64,000 bases of DNA, taken from assembly GCF_058153355.1 (NCBI RefSeq), contig NZ_CM177019.1, one strand, 5' to 3'. The stretch's first letter is position 1, and each line of letters begins with the position of its first letter. The position numbers and the translations under genes are program-made. This document shows, one piece after another, positions 52,699 to 57,806 of the stretch. The notes beneath the pieces were generated by a model. That model made no database searches and had not been told where the DNA came from. It saw only the letters and a program-made list of their open reading frames with translations.

Positions 52699-53362
52699 AG
52701 CGTGCTTCCTGCATTTCTCCGGCATGCGGTTGCAGTGTAATCACTTTATCCGCATGATTAATTTCGTCTTTATCGTGTGTCACCCACAGCACGGCAATAT
52801 TTTGCTCGCGCACATAACGGTGGATCATCTCATTAACGTTATGTTTATTACTTTCATCCAGTGCACTGGTGATTTCATCCAGCAATAATACCTTTGGCAT
52901 AAATTGCAGGTTACGAATCAATGAGATGCGTTGTTTTTCACCACCAGATAGCTCGGCGATATTCTTTGTCAATATGCTGTCCGGCAAAGCGAAGCGTTCG
53001 AGAAAATCGAGAAAAATGGCTGGGTCAGGCTGCTGGTTACGGATCTGCCAGGGAAAGATCAGATTATCGTATACCGTATCGCCAAACAGCGTCGGCGTCT
53101 GGGCGCAGTAAGATACTTGCTGGCGGTAGATTTCTGGCTTGAGTGTACTGACATCCTCACCTTCAAACAGCAACGTTCCGCTGGTTGGGCTGATTAATGA
53201 AGCAACAATTTTCAGCAGCGTACTTTTGCCACAACCGGAAGGGCCGGTAATTAACTTAAATTCGCCAGCACGTAGCGAAAAATTGATGTTATTAAGAATC
53301 TTCGTATCACCCGCCAGATATCCTACGTTTTGTAGCTAAAGCAAAGGACTATTTTCCTGCAT
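52685..53362 (-). pseudogene. fetA: Iron export ABC ATPase with in-frame amber codon at codon 9
   Basis: Minus strand reads ATG CAG GAA AAT AGT CCT TTG CTT TAG … from 53362; the 225-codon frame is otherwise open; ORF track only shows the 162-aa remainder from an internal Met. Confidence 0.7.
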
Positions 53363-54425: not shown

Positions 54426-54880
54426 TGGAGTTAATGGTCGTTCATCCACATATTTTCTGGCTCAGTCTCGGCGGGTTGTTGCTGGCAGCCGAGATGTTGG
54501 GCGGAAATGGTTATCTGTTGTGGAGCGGCGTGGCAGCGGTGATTACCGGCCTGGTGGTCTGGCTGGTGCCGCTGGGTTGGGAGTGGCAAGGGGTGATGTT
54601 TGCCGTCCTGACGCTGCTCGCCGCCTGGCTGTGGTGGAAATGGTTGTCGCGGCGGGTGCGCGAACAAAAGCACAGCGACAGTCATTTAAACCAGCGCGGG
54701 CAGCAGCTGATTGGTCGACGTTTTGTGCTGGAATCACCGCTGGTCAATGGGCGAGGTCATATGCGCGTCGGTGACAGTTCATGGCCTGTCAGCGCCAGCG
54801 AGGATCTCGGCGCTGGTACGCATGTTGAGGTGATTGCGATAGAAGGGATAACGCTGATTATCCGTGCGGTCATCGCCTGA
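54422..54880 (+). CDS. ybbJ: NfeD-like membrane protein
   Basis: 152-aa ORF overlapping qmcA stop (ATGA); two TM helices plus C-terminal OB-like region. Confidence 0.8.
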
Positions 54881-54919
54881 CGCGTCTTATCACACCCGGA
54901 AATCTGTACTAAAAATCAT

Positions 54920-54949
54920 GCCGGATAAGGCGTTTACGCCGCATCCGGC
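54920..54949. repeat. REP element
   Basis: gccggataaggcgtttacgccgcatccggc palindromic unit after ybbJ. Confidence 0.7.
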
Positions 54950-54972
54950 ATAATAGCCGAGTAGAGGCAAAA

Positions 54973-55335
54973 TTACTCTTCCCGGCCTTTACCCATACTT
55001 TTTTGGTCTTCATCCGGATAGTGTTTTTTTAGATATTCCAGGACGTTTTTATTGACCTTGTGTTGCGTATACACCCACCCTTTCCAGTAATCAGGCTGGT
55101 CCAGATAAACTTCTGGCGGAATGGTGAAATCAGAAAGCGTTAACCATTCGGCTAACAGATCGGGGTTTCGTTTCTGGATCAACTGCAACAGCATAATCAG
55201 CGACATGGCAGAGGCAGGAGCCGTACTATCGCCGCTTAAATACTTCCACACTGTCGACCGGTTCGAACGAAAAAGGATCGGTAGCAATGCCCGGTCCAGA
55301 TTCATTTCATTAAAAATCTTCTCAAATTCATTCAT
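54973..55335 (-). CDS. Hypothetical protein, possible HTH regulator
   Basis: 120-aa ORF divergent from the autotransporter gene; segment NRSTVWKYLSGD resembles a helix-turn-helix turn. Confidence 0.3.
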   Translation of the reverse strand: MNEFEKIFNEMNLDRALLPILFRSNRSTVWKYLSGDSTAPASAMSLIMLLQLIQKRNPDLLAEWLTLSDFTIPPEVYLDQPDYWKGWVYTQHKVNKNVLEYLKKHYPDEDQKSMGKGREE

Positions 55336-55519
55336 TTAAATGTTCCTGCCTGGCGTAAACCTCTTAAAAATTGAGATTTATCAAAGAAACGCATTTTAGC
55401 ACACATCAGGAACCGCTTCACGTTTAGTCCAGAAACAGAATTTATTTCGCTTTTCAAAACAAGTCTTTACTCTTTTTTACATTGAAAGAGCACGAAATGT
55501 TTTCCTTTTTAATTTATAA

Positions 55520-55540
55520 AAGAAACATTTTTTGTTTCTT
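55520..55540. promoter_or_regulatory. Perfect inverted repeat AAGAAACA-N5-TGTTTCTT
   Basis: Read directly; AT-rich intergenic region ~165 bp upstream of the autotransporter start. Confidence 0.4.
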
Positions 55541-55652
55541 ATTGGTGGTGTTTACGCTTACACCAGACAAAAATGCGCTTTACATCACACAAATGGCGGC
55601 GTAGATTTCGATCATATTGCAACGTATTTTATTTCTTAATAACAATATTATT

Positions 55653-55669
55653 TGTTTCTTATAGAAACA
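55653..55669. promoter_or_regulatory. Perfect inverted repeat TGTTTCT-N3-AGAAACA
   Basis: Same half-sites in opposite arrangement, ~35 bp upstream of the autotransporter start codon. Confidence 0.4.
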
Positions 55670-55702
55670 TTAATGCGACTTATTTTGAACAAGAGAAAAT
55701 GA

Positions 55703-56719
55703 ATGAAAACTGTAAACGTAGCTTTACTGGCACTCATAATTTCAGCAACATCCAGCCCTATTGTTTTAGCTGGTGATACCATTGAAGCGGCGGCAACAGA
55801 GCTTTCAGCCATTAACTCTGGCATGTCGCAATCGGAGATTGAGCAGAAGATTACCCGCTTTTTAGAACGCACCGACAACAGCCCCGCTGCATATACCTAT
55901 TTGACTGAACATCACTACATCCCTTCTGAAACACCTGATACCACTCAGACTCCCCCTGTCCAGACAGATCCTGACGCAGGACAAAAAACCGTTGCCGCTA
56001 CAGGTGATGTACAGACAACCGCCCGTTATCAGAGCATGCTCAACGCCCGACAGTCTGCGGTAACTGATGCCCAGCAAACGCAAATTACAGAGCAACAGGC
56101 GCAGATCGTAGCCACACAAAAAACGCTCGCCGCGACTGGAGATACGCAAAATACCGCGCATTATCAGGAGATGATTAATGCCAGGCTGGCGGCTCAAAAT
56201 GAGGCTAATCAGCGCACTACCACTGAACAAGGGCAGAAAATGAATGCGCTGACAACCGATGTGGCAGCACAACAGCAATATGAAAGGACTCAATACGATA
56301 AACAAATGCAAAGTCTGGCGCAGAAGTCTGTCCAGGCACATGAGCAAATTGAAAGTCTGAGACAAGATTCCGCACAAACGCAGCAACAGTTAACCAACAC
56401 CCAAAACCGGGTCGCTGATAACAGCCAGCAAATTAACACGCTCAATAACCATTTCGATTCGCTGAAAAACGAAGTTGAGGACAATCGTAAAGAAGCCAAT
56501 GCGGGAACTGCATCTGCCATCGCTATCGCCTCACAACCACAGGTGAAAACCGGTGACTTGATGATGGTGTCAGCGGGAGCGGGAACGTTCAACGGTGAAT
56601 CTGCGGTGTCTGTAGGAACATCTTTTAATGCCGGAACGCATACGGTACTTAAAGCAGGTATTTCTGCGGATACACAATCTGATTTCGGTGCGGGTGTCGG
56701 CGTGGGATATTCGTTCTAA
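55703..56719 (+). CDS. Small YadA-like trimeric autotransporter
   Basis: 338-aa ORF: signal peptide, Gln-rich region with internal repeats (TVAATGDVQTTARYQSMLNAR / TLAATGDTQNTAHYQEMINAR), C-terminal anchor-like GTASAIAIASQPQ…GAGVGVGYSF. Confidence 0.6.
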   Translation: MKTVNVALLALIISATSSPIVLAGDTIEAAATELSAINSGMSQSEIEQKITRFLERTDNSPAAYTYLTEHHYIPSETPDTTQTPPVQTDPDAGQKTVAATGDVQTTARYQSMLNARQSAVTDAQQTQITEQQAQIVATQKTLAATGDTQNTAHYQEMINARLAAQNEANQRTTTEQGQKMNALTTDVAAQQQYERTQYDKQMQSLAQKSVQAHEQIESLRQDSAQTQQQLTNTQNRVADNSQQINTLNNHFDSLKNEVEDNRKEANAGTASAIAIASQPQVKTGDLMMVSAGAGTFNGESAVSVGTSFNAGTHTVLKAGISADTQSDFGAGVGVGYSF

Positions 56720-56772
56720 TTTTAACAGCAATTTCTTATTCGCAATTTTCCGCACATTATTTAAGGTTAACA

Positions 56773-57195
56773 ATGATGAATAGCTCCATTAAATCGTTTT
56801 CCCTGCTGGCGGTTATATTACTGGCTGGCTGTAGTTCACCCACTTCCCGCATCGCAGATTGCCAGGCGCAGGGCGTCAGTCATGATACCTGTTATCTCGC
56901 AGAACAGCAGCGTCAGACGGCTATTTTAAGTGCATCCGAGGCGCAGGCATTTAAAAATGCAGAAGCCGCACAACATGCCCAGGCGGCAAAGAAAGCCATT
57001 TATAAAGGATTTGGCGTCACCTTCAGAATGAGCAGTAAGAACTTTGCTTATCTCAATGATTCATTATGTGCCATAGATGAGGATAATGCCGATGCCACGG
57101 TTTATCAGTCGGGTCTGTATAACGTCATTGTTTATCATCACACAGGAAAAATCGCCTTAATGAAAGAAGGCCAGTTTGTGGGTTATTTAAAATGA
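56773..57195 (+). CDS. Lipoprotein
   Basis: 140-aa ORF with lipobox (LLAGC) after signal peptide. Confidence 0.5.
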   Translation: MMNSSIKSFSLLAVILLAGCSSPTSRIADCQAQGVSHDTCYLAEQQRQTAILSASEAQAFKNAEAAQHAQAAKKAIYKGFGVTFRMSSKNFAYLNDSLCAIDEDNADATVYQSGLYNVIVYHHTGKIALMKEGQFVGYLK

Positions 57196-57395
57196 AGGAG
57201 CAAAGGAAAATCCCCCTGACGCATATTATGATTATCGGTGCGTTTATTTTTGCCTTCTTGCAAGTAGTATTATTAGCCTCCCTGGTTCACGCTGTGAATG
57301 TTAACAACGAAATCCAGGAAGGCTTATTTCAGTCGGGGCGCATTATGGTAGAAAGTTTGCAGCATATTCTTTCGGTGCAAACGGGGATTAACTGA
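57192..57395 (+). CDS. Small membrane protein
   Basis: 67-aa ORF with one TM helix; start overlaps lipoprotein stop (ATGA). Confidence 0.35.
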   Translation: MKEQRKIPLTHIMIIGAFIFAFLQVVLLASLVHAVNVNNEIQEGLFQSGRIMVESLQHILSVQTGIN

Positions 57396-57398
57396 TTT

Positions 57399-57806
57399 TC
57401 ACCCCGCCCGATGATGACAGCAGCCGGAGAGATTTTCGATAATTGGGCAGTCGGCGCTGTCATCACCGGGGCAGGCATTCGCCAGCGCCAGTAGCTGGTC
57501 GCGCATGGATTGCAGCTCCTCAATATGTCGCTCGATCTCCGCCACCTTTTCCAGCGTGCGCCGTTTAACGTCGGCGCTGTGCCGCTGCGGGTCGTTAAAC
57601 AGATTCACCAGCTCGCCGCTCTCTTCCAGGTTAAAACCCACCTGGCGTGCCTGCCGCAGTAAGGTCAGTTCGTTGAGATGCTGCTGCGTGTAAGTACGAT
57701 AACCGTTTTCGCTGCGCATCGGCGGCGTCACCAGCCCCTTCTCTTCATAGAAGCGGATTGCTTTGCTGGTCAGGCCGGTAATTTTTGCTACATCGCTAAT
57801 GTTCAT
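57399..57806 (-). CDS. cueR: MerR-family copper-responsive regulator
   Basis: 135-aa [29 protein letters not shown]… with C-terminal metal-binding Cys pair. Confidence 0.9.

What the first reader, a model, noticed from the sequence alone, without database searches (positions are those of the whole stretch)
54973..57395. Small YadA-like autotransporter operon with paired palindromes and a divergent putative regulator, inserted between ybbJ and cueR
A 338-aa protein with signal peptide, Gln-rich repeats and a YadA-type C-terminal anchor is followed by a lipoprotein and a small membrane protein with overlapping stop/start, reminiscent of autotransporter/lipoprotein partner pairs. Upstream are two perfect inverted repeats built from the same half-site (AAGAAACA-N5-TGTTTCTT and TGTTTCT-N3-AGAAACA). 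A divergent 120-aa ORF with a possible HTH is a candidate regulator. As far as I recall, ybbJ and cueR are adjacent in K-12, so this ~2.5 kb is likely accessory.
Basis: partly seen in the sequence, partly recalled or inferred. Interest (0 to 1): 0.5.

Follow-up and report, generated by a model that had tools for sequence, protein, structure and literature searches.

The report
OI-29 trimeric autotransporter adhesin locus
This 2.5-kb accessory island of E. coli (O-island 29) encodes a small surface-anchored trimeric autotransporter, a partner lipoprotein, a tiny membrane protein and a divergent helix-turn-helix regulator. The island is already known, but its autotransporter gene has been published as a cytoplasmic "transcription factor" (GmrA), and the sequence argues strongly against that.

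Summary
Window 54881-57398 is inserted exactly between the ybbJ and cueR stop codons, which abut in K-12. It is the known O-island 29 of EHEC O157:H7 (z0640/z0639/z0638, also called ihp3/ihp1/ihp2) and occurs in 1367 of 5426 complete E. coli genomes.

The 338-aa ORF is a headless trimeric autotransporter (TAA). It has a signal peptide, an acidic Gln/Ala/Thr-rich stalk and a YadA anchor (Pfam E=1.6e-11). Its alleles run 338-709 aa through repeat expansion. A lipobox lipoprotein and a 4-nt-overlapping 67-aa membrane protein follow it. Both travel with the TAA in other genera. The lipoprotein is not SadB-like.

The divergent 120-aa protein belongs to a tiny Pfam-less family (23 representatives among 1.84 billion). 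Its members score as Xre/MqsA-type HTH and almost always sit about 310-370 bp opposite a TAA gene.

The conserved DNA signal is an array of same-strand AGAAAC boxes plus a σ70-like promoter. Palindrome 1 is conserved. Palindrome 2 is conserved only as its right half outside E. coli.

Published deletion primers show that "GmrA", reported as a fliA-binding transcriptional activator, is this autotransporter. The locus is known and ordinary in kind. The literature conflict and the uncharacterised regulator and partner genes are the only novelty.

The parts
54906..54993 (.). REP-type repeat at the left junction, directly after the ybbJ stop at 54880
   Evidence: Sub-threshold Rfam naRNA4 (REP-derived) hits on both strands. 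The first 78 nt after ybbJ match REP copies in nearly all E. coli genomes.
54973..55335 (-). z0640 / ihp3: 120-aa MqsA/Xre-like HTH protein, the candidate local regulator
   Evidence: ORF. The z0640 deletion primer arm maps right next to its start codon. The family has only 23 representatives among 1.84 billion. Family members hit MqsA_antitoxin 3e-5, Xre-like-HTH 7e-5 and HTH_3 3.8e-4. hhalign to the MqsA HTH domain gives E=6.6e-4. It lies opposite a YadA_anchor gene (in one locus a truncated TAA remnant) in every locus with enough context, and opposite a TAA-like N-terminal fragment in L015.
55336..55702 (.). 367-bp divergent control region (31% GC). Its length of about 360-380 bp holds in the close family members; it is 308 bp in L016.
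   Evidence: Alignments A1 and A2. Motif statistics.
55385..55390 (+). AGAAAC box 1 (-318 from the TAA ATG). It lies next to a conserved TGnTAAAAT extended -10-like motif read on the minus strand for z0640.
   Evidence: Invariant in A2. The position is conserved in 8 loci. The promoter reading is my inference from the sequence.
55431..55436 (+). AGAAAC box 2 (-272)
55520..55540 (.). Palindrome P1, AAGAAACA-N5-TGTTTCTT, containing box 3 at -182. It is the candidate dimer operator about 40 bp upstream of the -35 hexamer.
   Evidence: The arms AAGAAAC/GTTTCTT are fixed in 7 E. coli lineages while the 7-nt spacer varies. It is also present in Symbiopectobacterium. The remote L016 system has AAGAACAT-N3-ATGTTCTT at a similar position.
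55579..55607 (+). σ70-like promoter of the TAA operon, TTTACA-17-TAGATT
   Evidence: Consensus scan. It is the most conserved block across genera (GCTTTAC...GGCGTA). No transcription start site data were available.
55653..55669 (.). Palindrome P2, TGTTTCT-N3-AGAAACA. Its right half is box 4 (55663-55668, -40), in the predicted 5' UTR.
   Evidence: The right half is invariant in all genera. The left arm is mutated in the GmF067/JSWP006 lineages and absent outside E. coli.
55703..56719 (+). z0639 / ihp1 / 'gmrA': 338-aa headless trimeric autotransporter. Signal peptide aa 1-23, stalk aa ~24-278, YadA anchor aa 279-338 (56537-56716).
   Evidence: Pfam YadA_anchor E=1.6e-11. PDB AtaA and Hia anchors. 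RefSeq annotation 'YadA family autotransporter adhesin'. The gmrA deletion arms flank exactly this CDS. Length alleles of 338/436/477/709 aa exist.
56773..57195 (+). z0638 / ihp2: 140-aa lipoprotein (lipobox LAGC, Cys20, Ser at +2). It has a conserved Cys30/Cys40 pair, a long helix 37-69 and an 8-stranded β domain 75-139.
57192..57395 (+). 67-aa single-pass membrane protein, translationally coupled to the lipoprotein gene (ATGA overlap). It ends 3 nt before the cueR stop.
   Evidence: Homologues of 68 aa in Pseudocitrobacter have the same 4-nt overlap; a 48-aa relative is in L011. No family hit in NCBIfam or PHROGs.

Best explanation
The segment is O-island 29, a small, horizontally mobile type Vc secretion (trimeric autotransporter, TAA) cassette.

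Shown by sequence:
- The 338-aa protein has a Sec signal peptide, an acidic Gln/Ala/Thr-rich repeat stalk with no head domain, and a C-terminal YadA four-strand anchor ending in Phe.
- A lipobox lipoprotein and a translationally coupled 67-aa membrane protein follow it.
- A 120-aa MqsA/Xre-like HTH gene diverges from it across a 367-bp spacer. The spacer carries a conserved σ70-like promoter and four same-strand AGAAAC boxes.

Inferred from what is known of the TAA family:
- The protein is exported by Sec. Three anchors are assembled by BAM into a 12-strand barrel. The coiled-coil stalk is threaded to the cell surface, where repeat expansion (338 to 709 aa) varies its length and antigenicity.

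Inferred from conserved gene linkage:
- The lipoprotein and the small membrane protein act in the envelope together with the TAA, in biogenesis, anchoring or a shared function.
- The HTH protein binds the AGAAAC boxes. It would bind as a dimer at the palindrome AAGAAAC-N7-GTTTCTT upstream of the promoter, and also at boxes over its own promoter and in the TAA 5' UTR. In this way it would control the operon and itself.

The published assignment of z0639 as the cytoplasmic, fliA-promoter-binding activator 'GmrA' is most likely an artefact of tagged, mislocalised protein. The motility phenotype itself may be real but indirect.
For: Identity of the island. Primer arms from PMC5826968 Table S2 map to the borders of OI-29 and of each ORF. 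The island covers at least 80% of the query in 1367 of 5426 complete genomes. The K-12 site is empty. The ISO-type O145 'ihp1' primers and probe match 100% inside the TAA allele at the same locus in O145:H28. UniProt names the neighbours IHP2 and IHP3.

TAA. YadA_anchor E=1.6e-11. AtaA and Hia anchors in the PDB. Signal peptide, and passenger charge of K+R 18 against D+E 31. Coiled-coil-type profile hits only; the sole 'DNA-binding' match is TMF_DNA_bd at E=0.088. A 369-bp repeat in 2.7 copies at 96% identity sits in the 709-aa allele.

Partners. The lipoprotein and small protein are conserved next to TAAs in other genera.

Regulator. The family is tiny, and its members sit opposite a TAA gene in every locus with enough context, even at 32-48% identity. 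There is family-level HTH evidence.

Cis-elements. AGAAAC occurs 3-5 times per spacer in 9 loci against about 0.2 expected (P<=0.001), at conserved positions. P1's arms are fixed while its spacer varies. The promoter block is conserved.
Against: - PMC5826968 reports EMSA and ChIP-qPCR binding of GmrA to the fliA promoter, and complementable motility defects in eight strains.
- The same paper found no adherence defect of ΔOI-29 on HeLa or Caco-2 cells, and no motility phenotype for Δz0638 or Δz0640.
- No localisation data exist for any of the four proteins.
- z0640 itself scores only E=0.12 against an HTH model, and its AlphaFold model has low confidence (pLDDT 56).
- The lipoprotein has no detectable relation to SadB or TpgA. 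One homologue stands alone without a TAA (L020).
- The E. asburiae TAA-lipoprotein pair lacks the regulator.
- The remote L016 system lacks AGAAAC boxes.
- The promoter is only a consensus match.
Confidence: 0.72

Rival explanations
1. [not shown]
For: PMC5826968 reports an EMSA with His6-GmrA, ChIP-qPCR with GmrA-3xFLAG, reduced fliA/fliC/motA expression and loss of flagella in ΔgmrA, complementation, and the same phenotype in eight strains. Two reviews repeat the claim.
Against: - The deletion arms flank a protein with a Sec signal peptide and a significant YadA outer-membrane anchor.
- No DNA-binding domain was found in Pfam or NCBIfam; there are only coiled-coil-type weak hits.
- The passenger is acidic (net about -13).
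- The gene shows repeat-length polymorphism typical of surface proteins.
- RefSeq and UniProt annotate it as an adhesin.
- The constructs used carried an N-terminal His tag, placed ahead of the signal peptide if the full ORF was cloned. They also carried a C-terminal 3xFLAG after the terminal Phe that OMP assembly needs. Both would be expected to trap the protein in the cytoplasm. This last point is my inference from general OMP biogenesis knowledge.
Confidence: 0.08
2. [not shown]
For: - The boxes are mostly direct, not inverted, repeats. That suits tandem response-regulator binding better than a symmetric HTH dimer.
- The spacer is 31% GC.
- P2 lies downstream of the predicted promoter and could fold in the mRNA.
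- gmrA expression is reported to respond to osmolarity, pH and temperature.
Against: - The boxes travel with the cassette into different genera and chromosomal sites, together with the regulator gene.
- The most diverged regulator (L016) is paired with a changed motif, AAGAACAT-N3-ATGTTCTT, at the P1 position. That looks like co-variation of protein and site.
- P2's stem is not maintained by compensatory change; only one arm is conserved.
- No Rfam family matches the region.
Confidence: 0.2
3. The lipoprotein and the small membrane protein are not autotransporter helpers. They would have an independent envelope function, for example a MliC/PliC/ACP-like lysozyme-inhibitor-type β-barrel lipoprotein, and merely hitch-hike in the island.
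For: - One homologue occurs without an adjacent TAA.
- Δz0638 gave no motility phenotype.
- A 2026 survey found no TAA helpers beyond SadB and TpgA.
Against: - Its position immediately downstream of a TAA is conserved in at least five lineages, including one without the regulator.
- There is no Pfam MliC hit even at E<=10.
Confidence: 0.3

Closest known systems
YadA / Hia / AtaA-type trimeric autotransporter adhesins (type Vc secretion); in E. coli UpaG/EhaG, Eib and Saa
   Same: Sec signal peptide, fibrous repeat passenger and a C-terminal YadA_anchor (Pfam E=1.6e-11; PDB AtaA and Hia anchors). Allelic length variation by repeat expansion.
   Different: Very short (338 aa). No head, neck or Hep_Hag modules were detected. 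The passenger is a Gln/Ala/Thr-rich acidic stalk only. No adhesion phenotype was seen on HeLa or Caco-2 cells in the one published test.
SadB-SadA of Salmonella (a lipoprotein that helps TAA surface display; PMC3953254)
   Same: A small lipoprotein with an N-terminal helix followed by a β domain, encoded in the same operon as a TAA and lost together with it in K-12.
   Different: No sequence or fold match to SadB or YajI. The β domain is an 8-strand barrel-like fold of about 65 aa, not a MATH-like sandwich of about 100 aa. The gene lies downstream, not upstream. The +2 residue is Ser, so outer-membrane sorting is predicted, whereas SadB is in the inner membrane. An extra 67-aa membrane protein is coupled to it.
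TpgA-AtaA of Acinetobacter (a periplasmic BamE/OmpA-like TAA partner)
   Same: A conserved neighbour gene of a TAA that encodes an exported envelope protein.
MqsA / Xre-family HTH proteins
   Different: No zinc-binding N-domain and no toxin partner. There is a distinct ~55-aa C-terminal extension. The family is tied to TAA genes and has no Pfam or NCBIfam model of its own.
O-island 29 / GmrA (PMC5826968) and the ihp1 O145 PCR marker
   Same: It is the same locus. The primer arms and the PCR oligonucleotides map onto it.
   Different: The literature describes z0639 as a DNA-binding activator and the neighbours as hypothetical proteins. The sequence shows an outer-membrane autotransporter, a lipoprotein and an HTH protein. 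The window's allele lacks the O145-specific ihp1 primer sites.

Membership tests
Trimeric autotransporter (type Vc) | C-terminal YadA-type membrane anchor (four β-strands per monomer) | tested here: met
   Pfam PF03895, residues 279-338, full-length model match, E=1.6e-11. PDB AtaA at 4e-7 and Hia at 6e-6 to 1e-5. NCBIfam EmaA and Vomp C-terminal regions.
Trimeric autotransporter (type Vc) | N-terminal Sec signal peptide | tested here: met
   Positively charged N-region, hydrophobic core 6-24 (Kyte-Doolittle 2.06) and a VLA|GD cleavage motif. The same layout holds in all alleles and orthologues. No dedicated predictor was available.
Trimeric autotransporter (type Vc) | Fibrous coiled-coil stalk passenger | tested here: inconclusive
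   Only coiled-coil families match residues ~100-270 (SMC 1e-4, CCDC93_CC, ATG16). The hydrophobic periodicity peak at 3.46 residues is weak. No structure model was made for it.
Trimeric autotransporter (type Vc) | Trimerisation, BAM-dependent insertion and surface display | not testable with these tools
   Requires fractionation, heat-modifiability gels and surface labelling.
Trimeric autotransporter (type Vc) | Adhesive head domain (YadA head / Hep_Hag). Common but not required. | tested here: not met
   No head, neck or Hep_Hag hit in Pfam or NCBIfam.
SadB-type TAA helper lipoprotein | Homology (sequence or fold) to SadB/YajI: coiled coil plus MATH-like β-sandwich | tested here: not met
   [not shown]
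SadB-type TAA helper lipoprotein | Lipoprotein encoded in an operon with a TAA | tested here: met
   Lipobox LAGC. The gene starts 53 nt after the TAA stop. The linkage is conserved in at least five lineages.
SadB-type TAA helper lipoprotein | Enhances TAA surface display | not testable with these tools
   Needs Δz0638 and Δ67-aa strains with TAA quantification.
Xre/MqsA-type HTH regulator | Recognisable HTH-XRE domain | tested here: inconclusive
   The window protein scores only MqsA_antitoxin E=0.12. Among family members, one scores at E<=0.001 and two at E<=0.1 on each of four HTH models. hhalign to MqsA gives E=6.6e-4 but only 27% probability. The AlphaFold model is all-helical at pLDDT 56.
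Xre/MqsA-type HTH regulator | Sequence-specific DNA binding to an adjacent operator | not testable with these tools
   Only indirect support: conserved AGAAAC boxes and the P1 palindrome.
Cytoplasmic transcription factor ('GmrA' as published) | A recognised DNA-binding domain | tested here: not met
   None in Pfam or NCBIfam. The only 'DNA-binding'-named hit is the coiled-coil family TMF_DNA_bd at E=0.088.
Cytoplasmic transcription factor ('GmrA' as published) | Cytoplasmic location | tested here: not met
   By prediction only: a signal peptide plus an outer-membrane anchor. Experimental localisation was not available.

The most novel reading that the evidence does not exclude
OI-29-type loci would be a distinct, self-regulating autotransporter cassette. 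It would have (i) a dedicated MqsA-like HTH regulator family that reads AGAAAC boxes, and (ii) a new lipoprotein plus mini-membrane-protein pair forming a third class of TAA partner or helper, after SadB and TpgA. On this reading the reported 'GmrA' control of flagella is really an envelope-to-flagellar signalling consequence of displaying, or losing, this surface fibre, not direct DNA binding.
Probability: 0.3. Interest if true: 0.6.

Novelty: already known. Interest (0 to 1): 0.4.

Why it matters
The locus is an ordinary, already catalogued accessory island (OI-29). RefSeq annotates the TAA correctly, and one allele is the routine 'ihp1' PCR target for EHEC O145.

Its value lies in three points:
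- A protein carried in several reviews as an OI-encoded transcription factor is, by sequence, an exported outer-membrane autotransporter. The proposed GmrA-fliA mechanism therefore needs re-testing with correctly localised protein.
- The real candidate regulator (z0640) and its conserved AGAAAC boxes have not been studied.
- The lipoprotein and 67-aa pair is a testable candidate for a new TAA partner system, in a field where only SadB and TpgA are known.

Tried and rejected
- A known RNA in the long spacer: Rfam at E<=1 finds only the REP-derived naRNA4 at the left junction.
- DNA tandem repeats in the window's TAA: none. The repeats are diverged at the protein level, while long alleles have near-perfect 369-bp repeats.
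- Direct family assignment of z0640: NCBIfam and PHROGs give nothing. PDB profile searches give only non-significant hits; the best, from the broader family alignment, is an Xre antitoxin HTH at E=0.55. The AlphaFold model was too poor (pLDDT 56) to justify a fold search, so none was run.
- AGAAAC boxes at the fliA promoter, as a possible link between z0640 and motility: one copy about 45 nt upstream of fliA, not above chance (59 of 200 shuffles reach the count).
- ihp1 primers in the window or in the other fetched alleles: no match. They are specific to the 436-aa O145:H28 allele.
- A toxin-antitoxin reading of the MqsA-like protein: no toxin-like neighbour in any locus.
- Integrase or target-site duplication at the island borders: nothing seen. 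The island sits flush between two stop codons with a REP on one side.
Full report
**What is there.**
They are a 120-aa ORF on the minus strand (54973-55335), a 338-aa ORF (55703-56719), a 140-aa ORF (56773-57195) and a 67-aa ORF (57192-57395). The 67-aa ORF overlaps the 140-aa ORF by ATGA. On the left are qmcA and ybbJ. On the right is cueR, followed by a type I secretion HlyD/ABC pair.

In K-12 the cueR stop (514400) and the ybbJ stop (514401) touch. The junction alignment shows the island lying flush between the two stops, with a REP-type repeat on the ybbJ side. A megablast against 5426 complete E. coli genomes finds at least 80% of the segment in 1367 of them. In every copy inspected it lies at this site and is annotated [quoted passage not shown].

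**The locus is already known.**
It is O-island 29 of EHEC O157:H7. Yang et al. 2018 (PMC5826968) describe OI-29 as a 2,643-bp island containing z0638, z0639 and z0640. I mapped the homology arms of their λ-Red primers (Table S2) onto an O157:H7 genome and onto the window.
- The OI-29 arms sit in ybbJ and cueR.
- The z0640 arms flank the 120-aa ORF.
- The z0638 arms flank the lipoprotein ORF.
- The "gmrA" (z0639) arms abut the start and stop codons of the 338-aa YadA-family CDS.

UniProt calls the lipoprotein IHP2 and the 120-aa protein IHP3. I recalled the O145 "ihp1" real-time PCR primers and probe from memory. They match at 100% in 28 E. coli genomes, the eight listed all being O145 or O145:H28. 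The match lies inside a 436-aa allele of the same TAA gene, at the same ybbJ/cueR locus. They do not match the window's allele.

**The 338-aa protein is a trimeric autotransporter (TAA).**
- Pfam YadA_anchor covers residues 279-338 over the whole model at E=1.6e-11.
- The same region matches the solved anchors of AtaA and Hia and the C-terminal parts of EmaA and Vomp.
- The N-terminus is a classical signal peptide. The protein ends in Phe, has no Cys, and carries an acidic passenger (K+R 18, D+E 31) that is 18% Gln in the stalk.
- Two ~46-aa repeats share 59% identity.
- Other strains carry 436-, 477- and 709-aa alleles. The 709-aa allele holds a 369-bp unit in 2.7 copies at 96% identity.
- RefSeq truncates the 477- and 709-aa alleles to 350 aa without a signal peptide.
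- No head or neck modules were detected, so this is a short, headless TAA.

**Conflict with the literature.**
- I find no DNA-binding domain. The only hit with such a name is the coiled-coil family TMF_DNA_bd at E=0.088, among other coiled-coil matches.
- A tag placed ahead of the signal peptide, if the full ORF was cloned, should keep the protein in the cytoplasm. So should a tag after the C-terminal Phe that outer-membrane protein assembly needs. This is my inference from general OMP biogenesis knowledge.
- The motility phenotype was complemented and reproduced in eight strains, so it may be real. A direct DNA-binding mechanism is unlikely for an exported, acidic, repeat-variable anchor protein.
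- In the searchable library, no paper connects GmrA with an autotransporter.

**Partner genes.**
The 140-aa protein has the lipobox LAGC with Ser at +2, a conserved Cys30/Cys40 pair, a long helix and a C-terminal β domain. The AlphaFold model is confident for the β domain (pLDDT about 90).

Even so, the lipoprotein lies immediately downstream of a TAA in four other settings:
- Pseudocitrobacter (L007);
- an unnamed enterobacterial contig (L012);
- a more distant system (L016);
- Enterobacter asburiae (L019, which has no regulator gene).

One homologue stands alone. The 67-aa single-pass protein is conserved with the same 4-nt overlap in Pseudocitrobacter, and a 48-aa relative occurs in L011.

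**The divergent 120-aa protein.**
Its family is tiny: 21 clusters at 90% identity among 5.8 billion, and 23 representatives among 1.84 billion. It has no Pfam, NCBIfam or PHROG model.

Individual members nevertheless hit MqsA_antitoxin (3e-5), Xre-like-HTH (7e-5), HTH_3 (3.8e-4) and HTH_26 (4.5e-4). The family profile aligns to the HTH domain of MqsA, including the helix after the recognition helix (hhalign E=6.6e-4 but probability only 27%). The AlphaFold model is all-helical but of low confidence.

In every locus with enough context, down to 32% identity, the gene lies head-to-head with a YadA_anchor gene (in Symbiopectobacterium a truncated remnant) across about 310-380 bp. This holds at different chromosomal sites:
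- between qmcA and fetA in Pseudocitrobacter;
- next to qmcA in L012;
- in unrelated contexts in L011, L014 and L016.

The copy in the symbiont Symbiopectobacterium is decaying.

**The cis-elements.**
Both palindromes are present and perfect, but a single such palindrome is unremarkable in this AT-rich spacer (14% of shuffles). The non-random feature is the shared half-site.
- Two palindromes sharing a half-site occur in 5 of 3000 shuffles.
- AGAAAC occurs four times on the TAA-sense strand, against about 0.2 expected (0 of 2000 shuffles).
- The same holds in nine loci from several genera, at conserved positions of roughly -318, -272, -182 and -40 from the ATG.
- Five of the eight AGAAACA copies in the 64-kb window are in this spacer.

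P1 behaves like a protein-binding palindrome. Its arms AAGAAAC/GTTTCTT are fixed in seven E. coli lineages while the 7-nt spacer varies (ATTTTTT, CATTTTT, TATTTTT, ACTTTTT, CAATTCA). It is present in Symbiopectobacterium. The most distant system carries a changed palindrome, AAGAACAT-N3-ATGTTCTT, at a similar position.

P2 is weaker. Its right half is invariant everywhere. Its left arm is mutated in the long-allele E. coli lineages and absent outside E. coli.

The best-conserved block of all is a σ70-like promoter, TTTACA-17-TAGATT, at 55579-55607. That placement puts P1 about 40 bp upstream of the -35 hexamer and box 4 in the 5' UTR. Boxes 1 and 2 flank a conserved TGnTAAAAT motif on the minus strand, which I read as the z0640 promoter (inference).

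**Mechanism and confidence.**
- Shown by sequence: the domain architecture, the gene order, the insertion site, the conservation of the module and of the boxes, and the identity with OI-29/ihp/gmrA.
- Inferred from TAA biology: Sec export, BAM-dependent trimeric barrel formation and surface display of a length-variable stalk.
- Unknown: the ligand or role of the fibre (ΔOI-29 did not change HeLa or Caco-2 adherence), and how its loss lowers fliA expression.

**Verdict.**
The object is a known accessory island of an ordinary kind. What remains of interest is a published functional assignment that the sequence contradicts, an unstudied TAA-linked HTH family with a clear candidate operator, and a candidate new TAA partner pair.

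Noticed in passing
window 53336-53338 (fetA, minus strand; ATG at 53360-53362): fetA carries an in-frame stop at codon 9 (MQENSPLL*LQNVGYL...). The longest remaining ORF starts after the Walker A motif, so the iron-efflux ATPase FetA looks like a pseudogene in this strain.
   Followed up: partly
window 57803-60267 and beyond: cueR is followed by a HlyD-family adaptor and a type I secretion ABC permease/ATPase. In O157:H7 a giant, disrupted Ig-like-domain (RTX-type) gene follows these, forming an OI-28-like island. K-12 has ybaT there instead.
   Followed up: no
L003 2264-3697; L004 2218-4347: RefSeq/PGAP annotates the 477-aa and 709-aa TAA alleles as 350-aa 'YadA-like family protein' starting at an internal codon. 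The signal peptide and the repeat region are therefore missing from the annotated product.
   Followed up: yes
L018 5893-7116; L006 4106-5329: O145:H28 and strain GF4-3 carry an extra 407-aa hypothetical ORF between the small membrane protein gene and cueR. It is absent from the window and from O157:H7, and its function is unknown.
   Followed up: no
L007, L008, L012 (Pseudocitrobacter and an unnamed enterobacterial contig): The same four-gene cassette sits on the other side of ybbJ-qmcA: between qmcA and fetA, or in L012 next to qmcA where fetAB is missing. The qmcA-ybbJ neighbourhood seems to be a recurrent landing site for this cassette.
   Followed up: partly
[not shown]
   Followed up: no
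[not shown]
   Followed up: partly
L009 4520-5621 (Symbiopectobacterium): In this symbiont the cassette is decaying. The TAA is truncated to 174 aa without an anchor, and the lipoprotein is split into 64- and 115-aa ORFs. The HTH gene and the AGAAAC boxes are intact.
   Followed up: partly
L012 2792-4639: The TAA paired with this regulator homologue has a passenger made of about 14 near-identical ~26-aa repeats (KPNGSQHPTNEHHIENAPV...). It is His/Pro-rich and unlike the Gln-rich E. coli stalk, so passengers are swapped freely on a conserved anchor and regulator.
   Followed up: no
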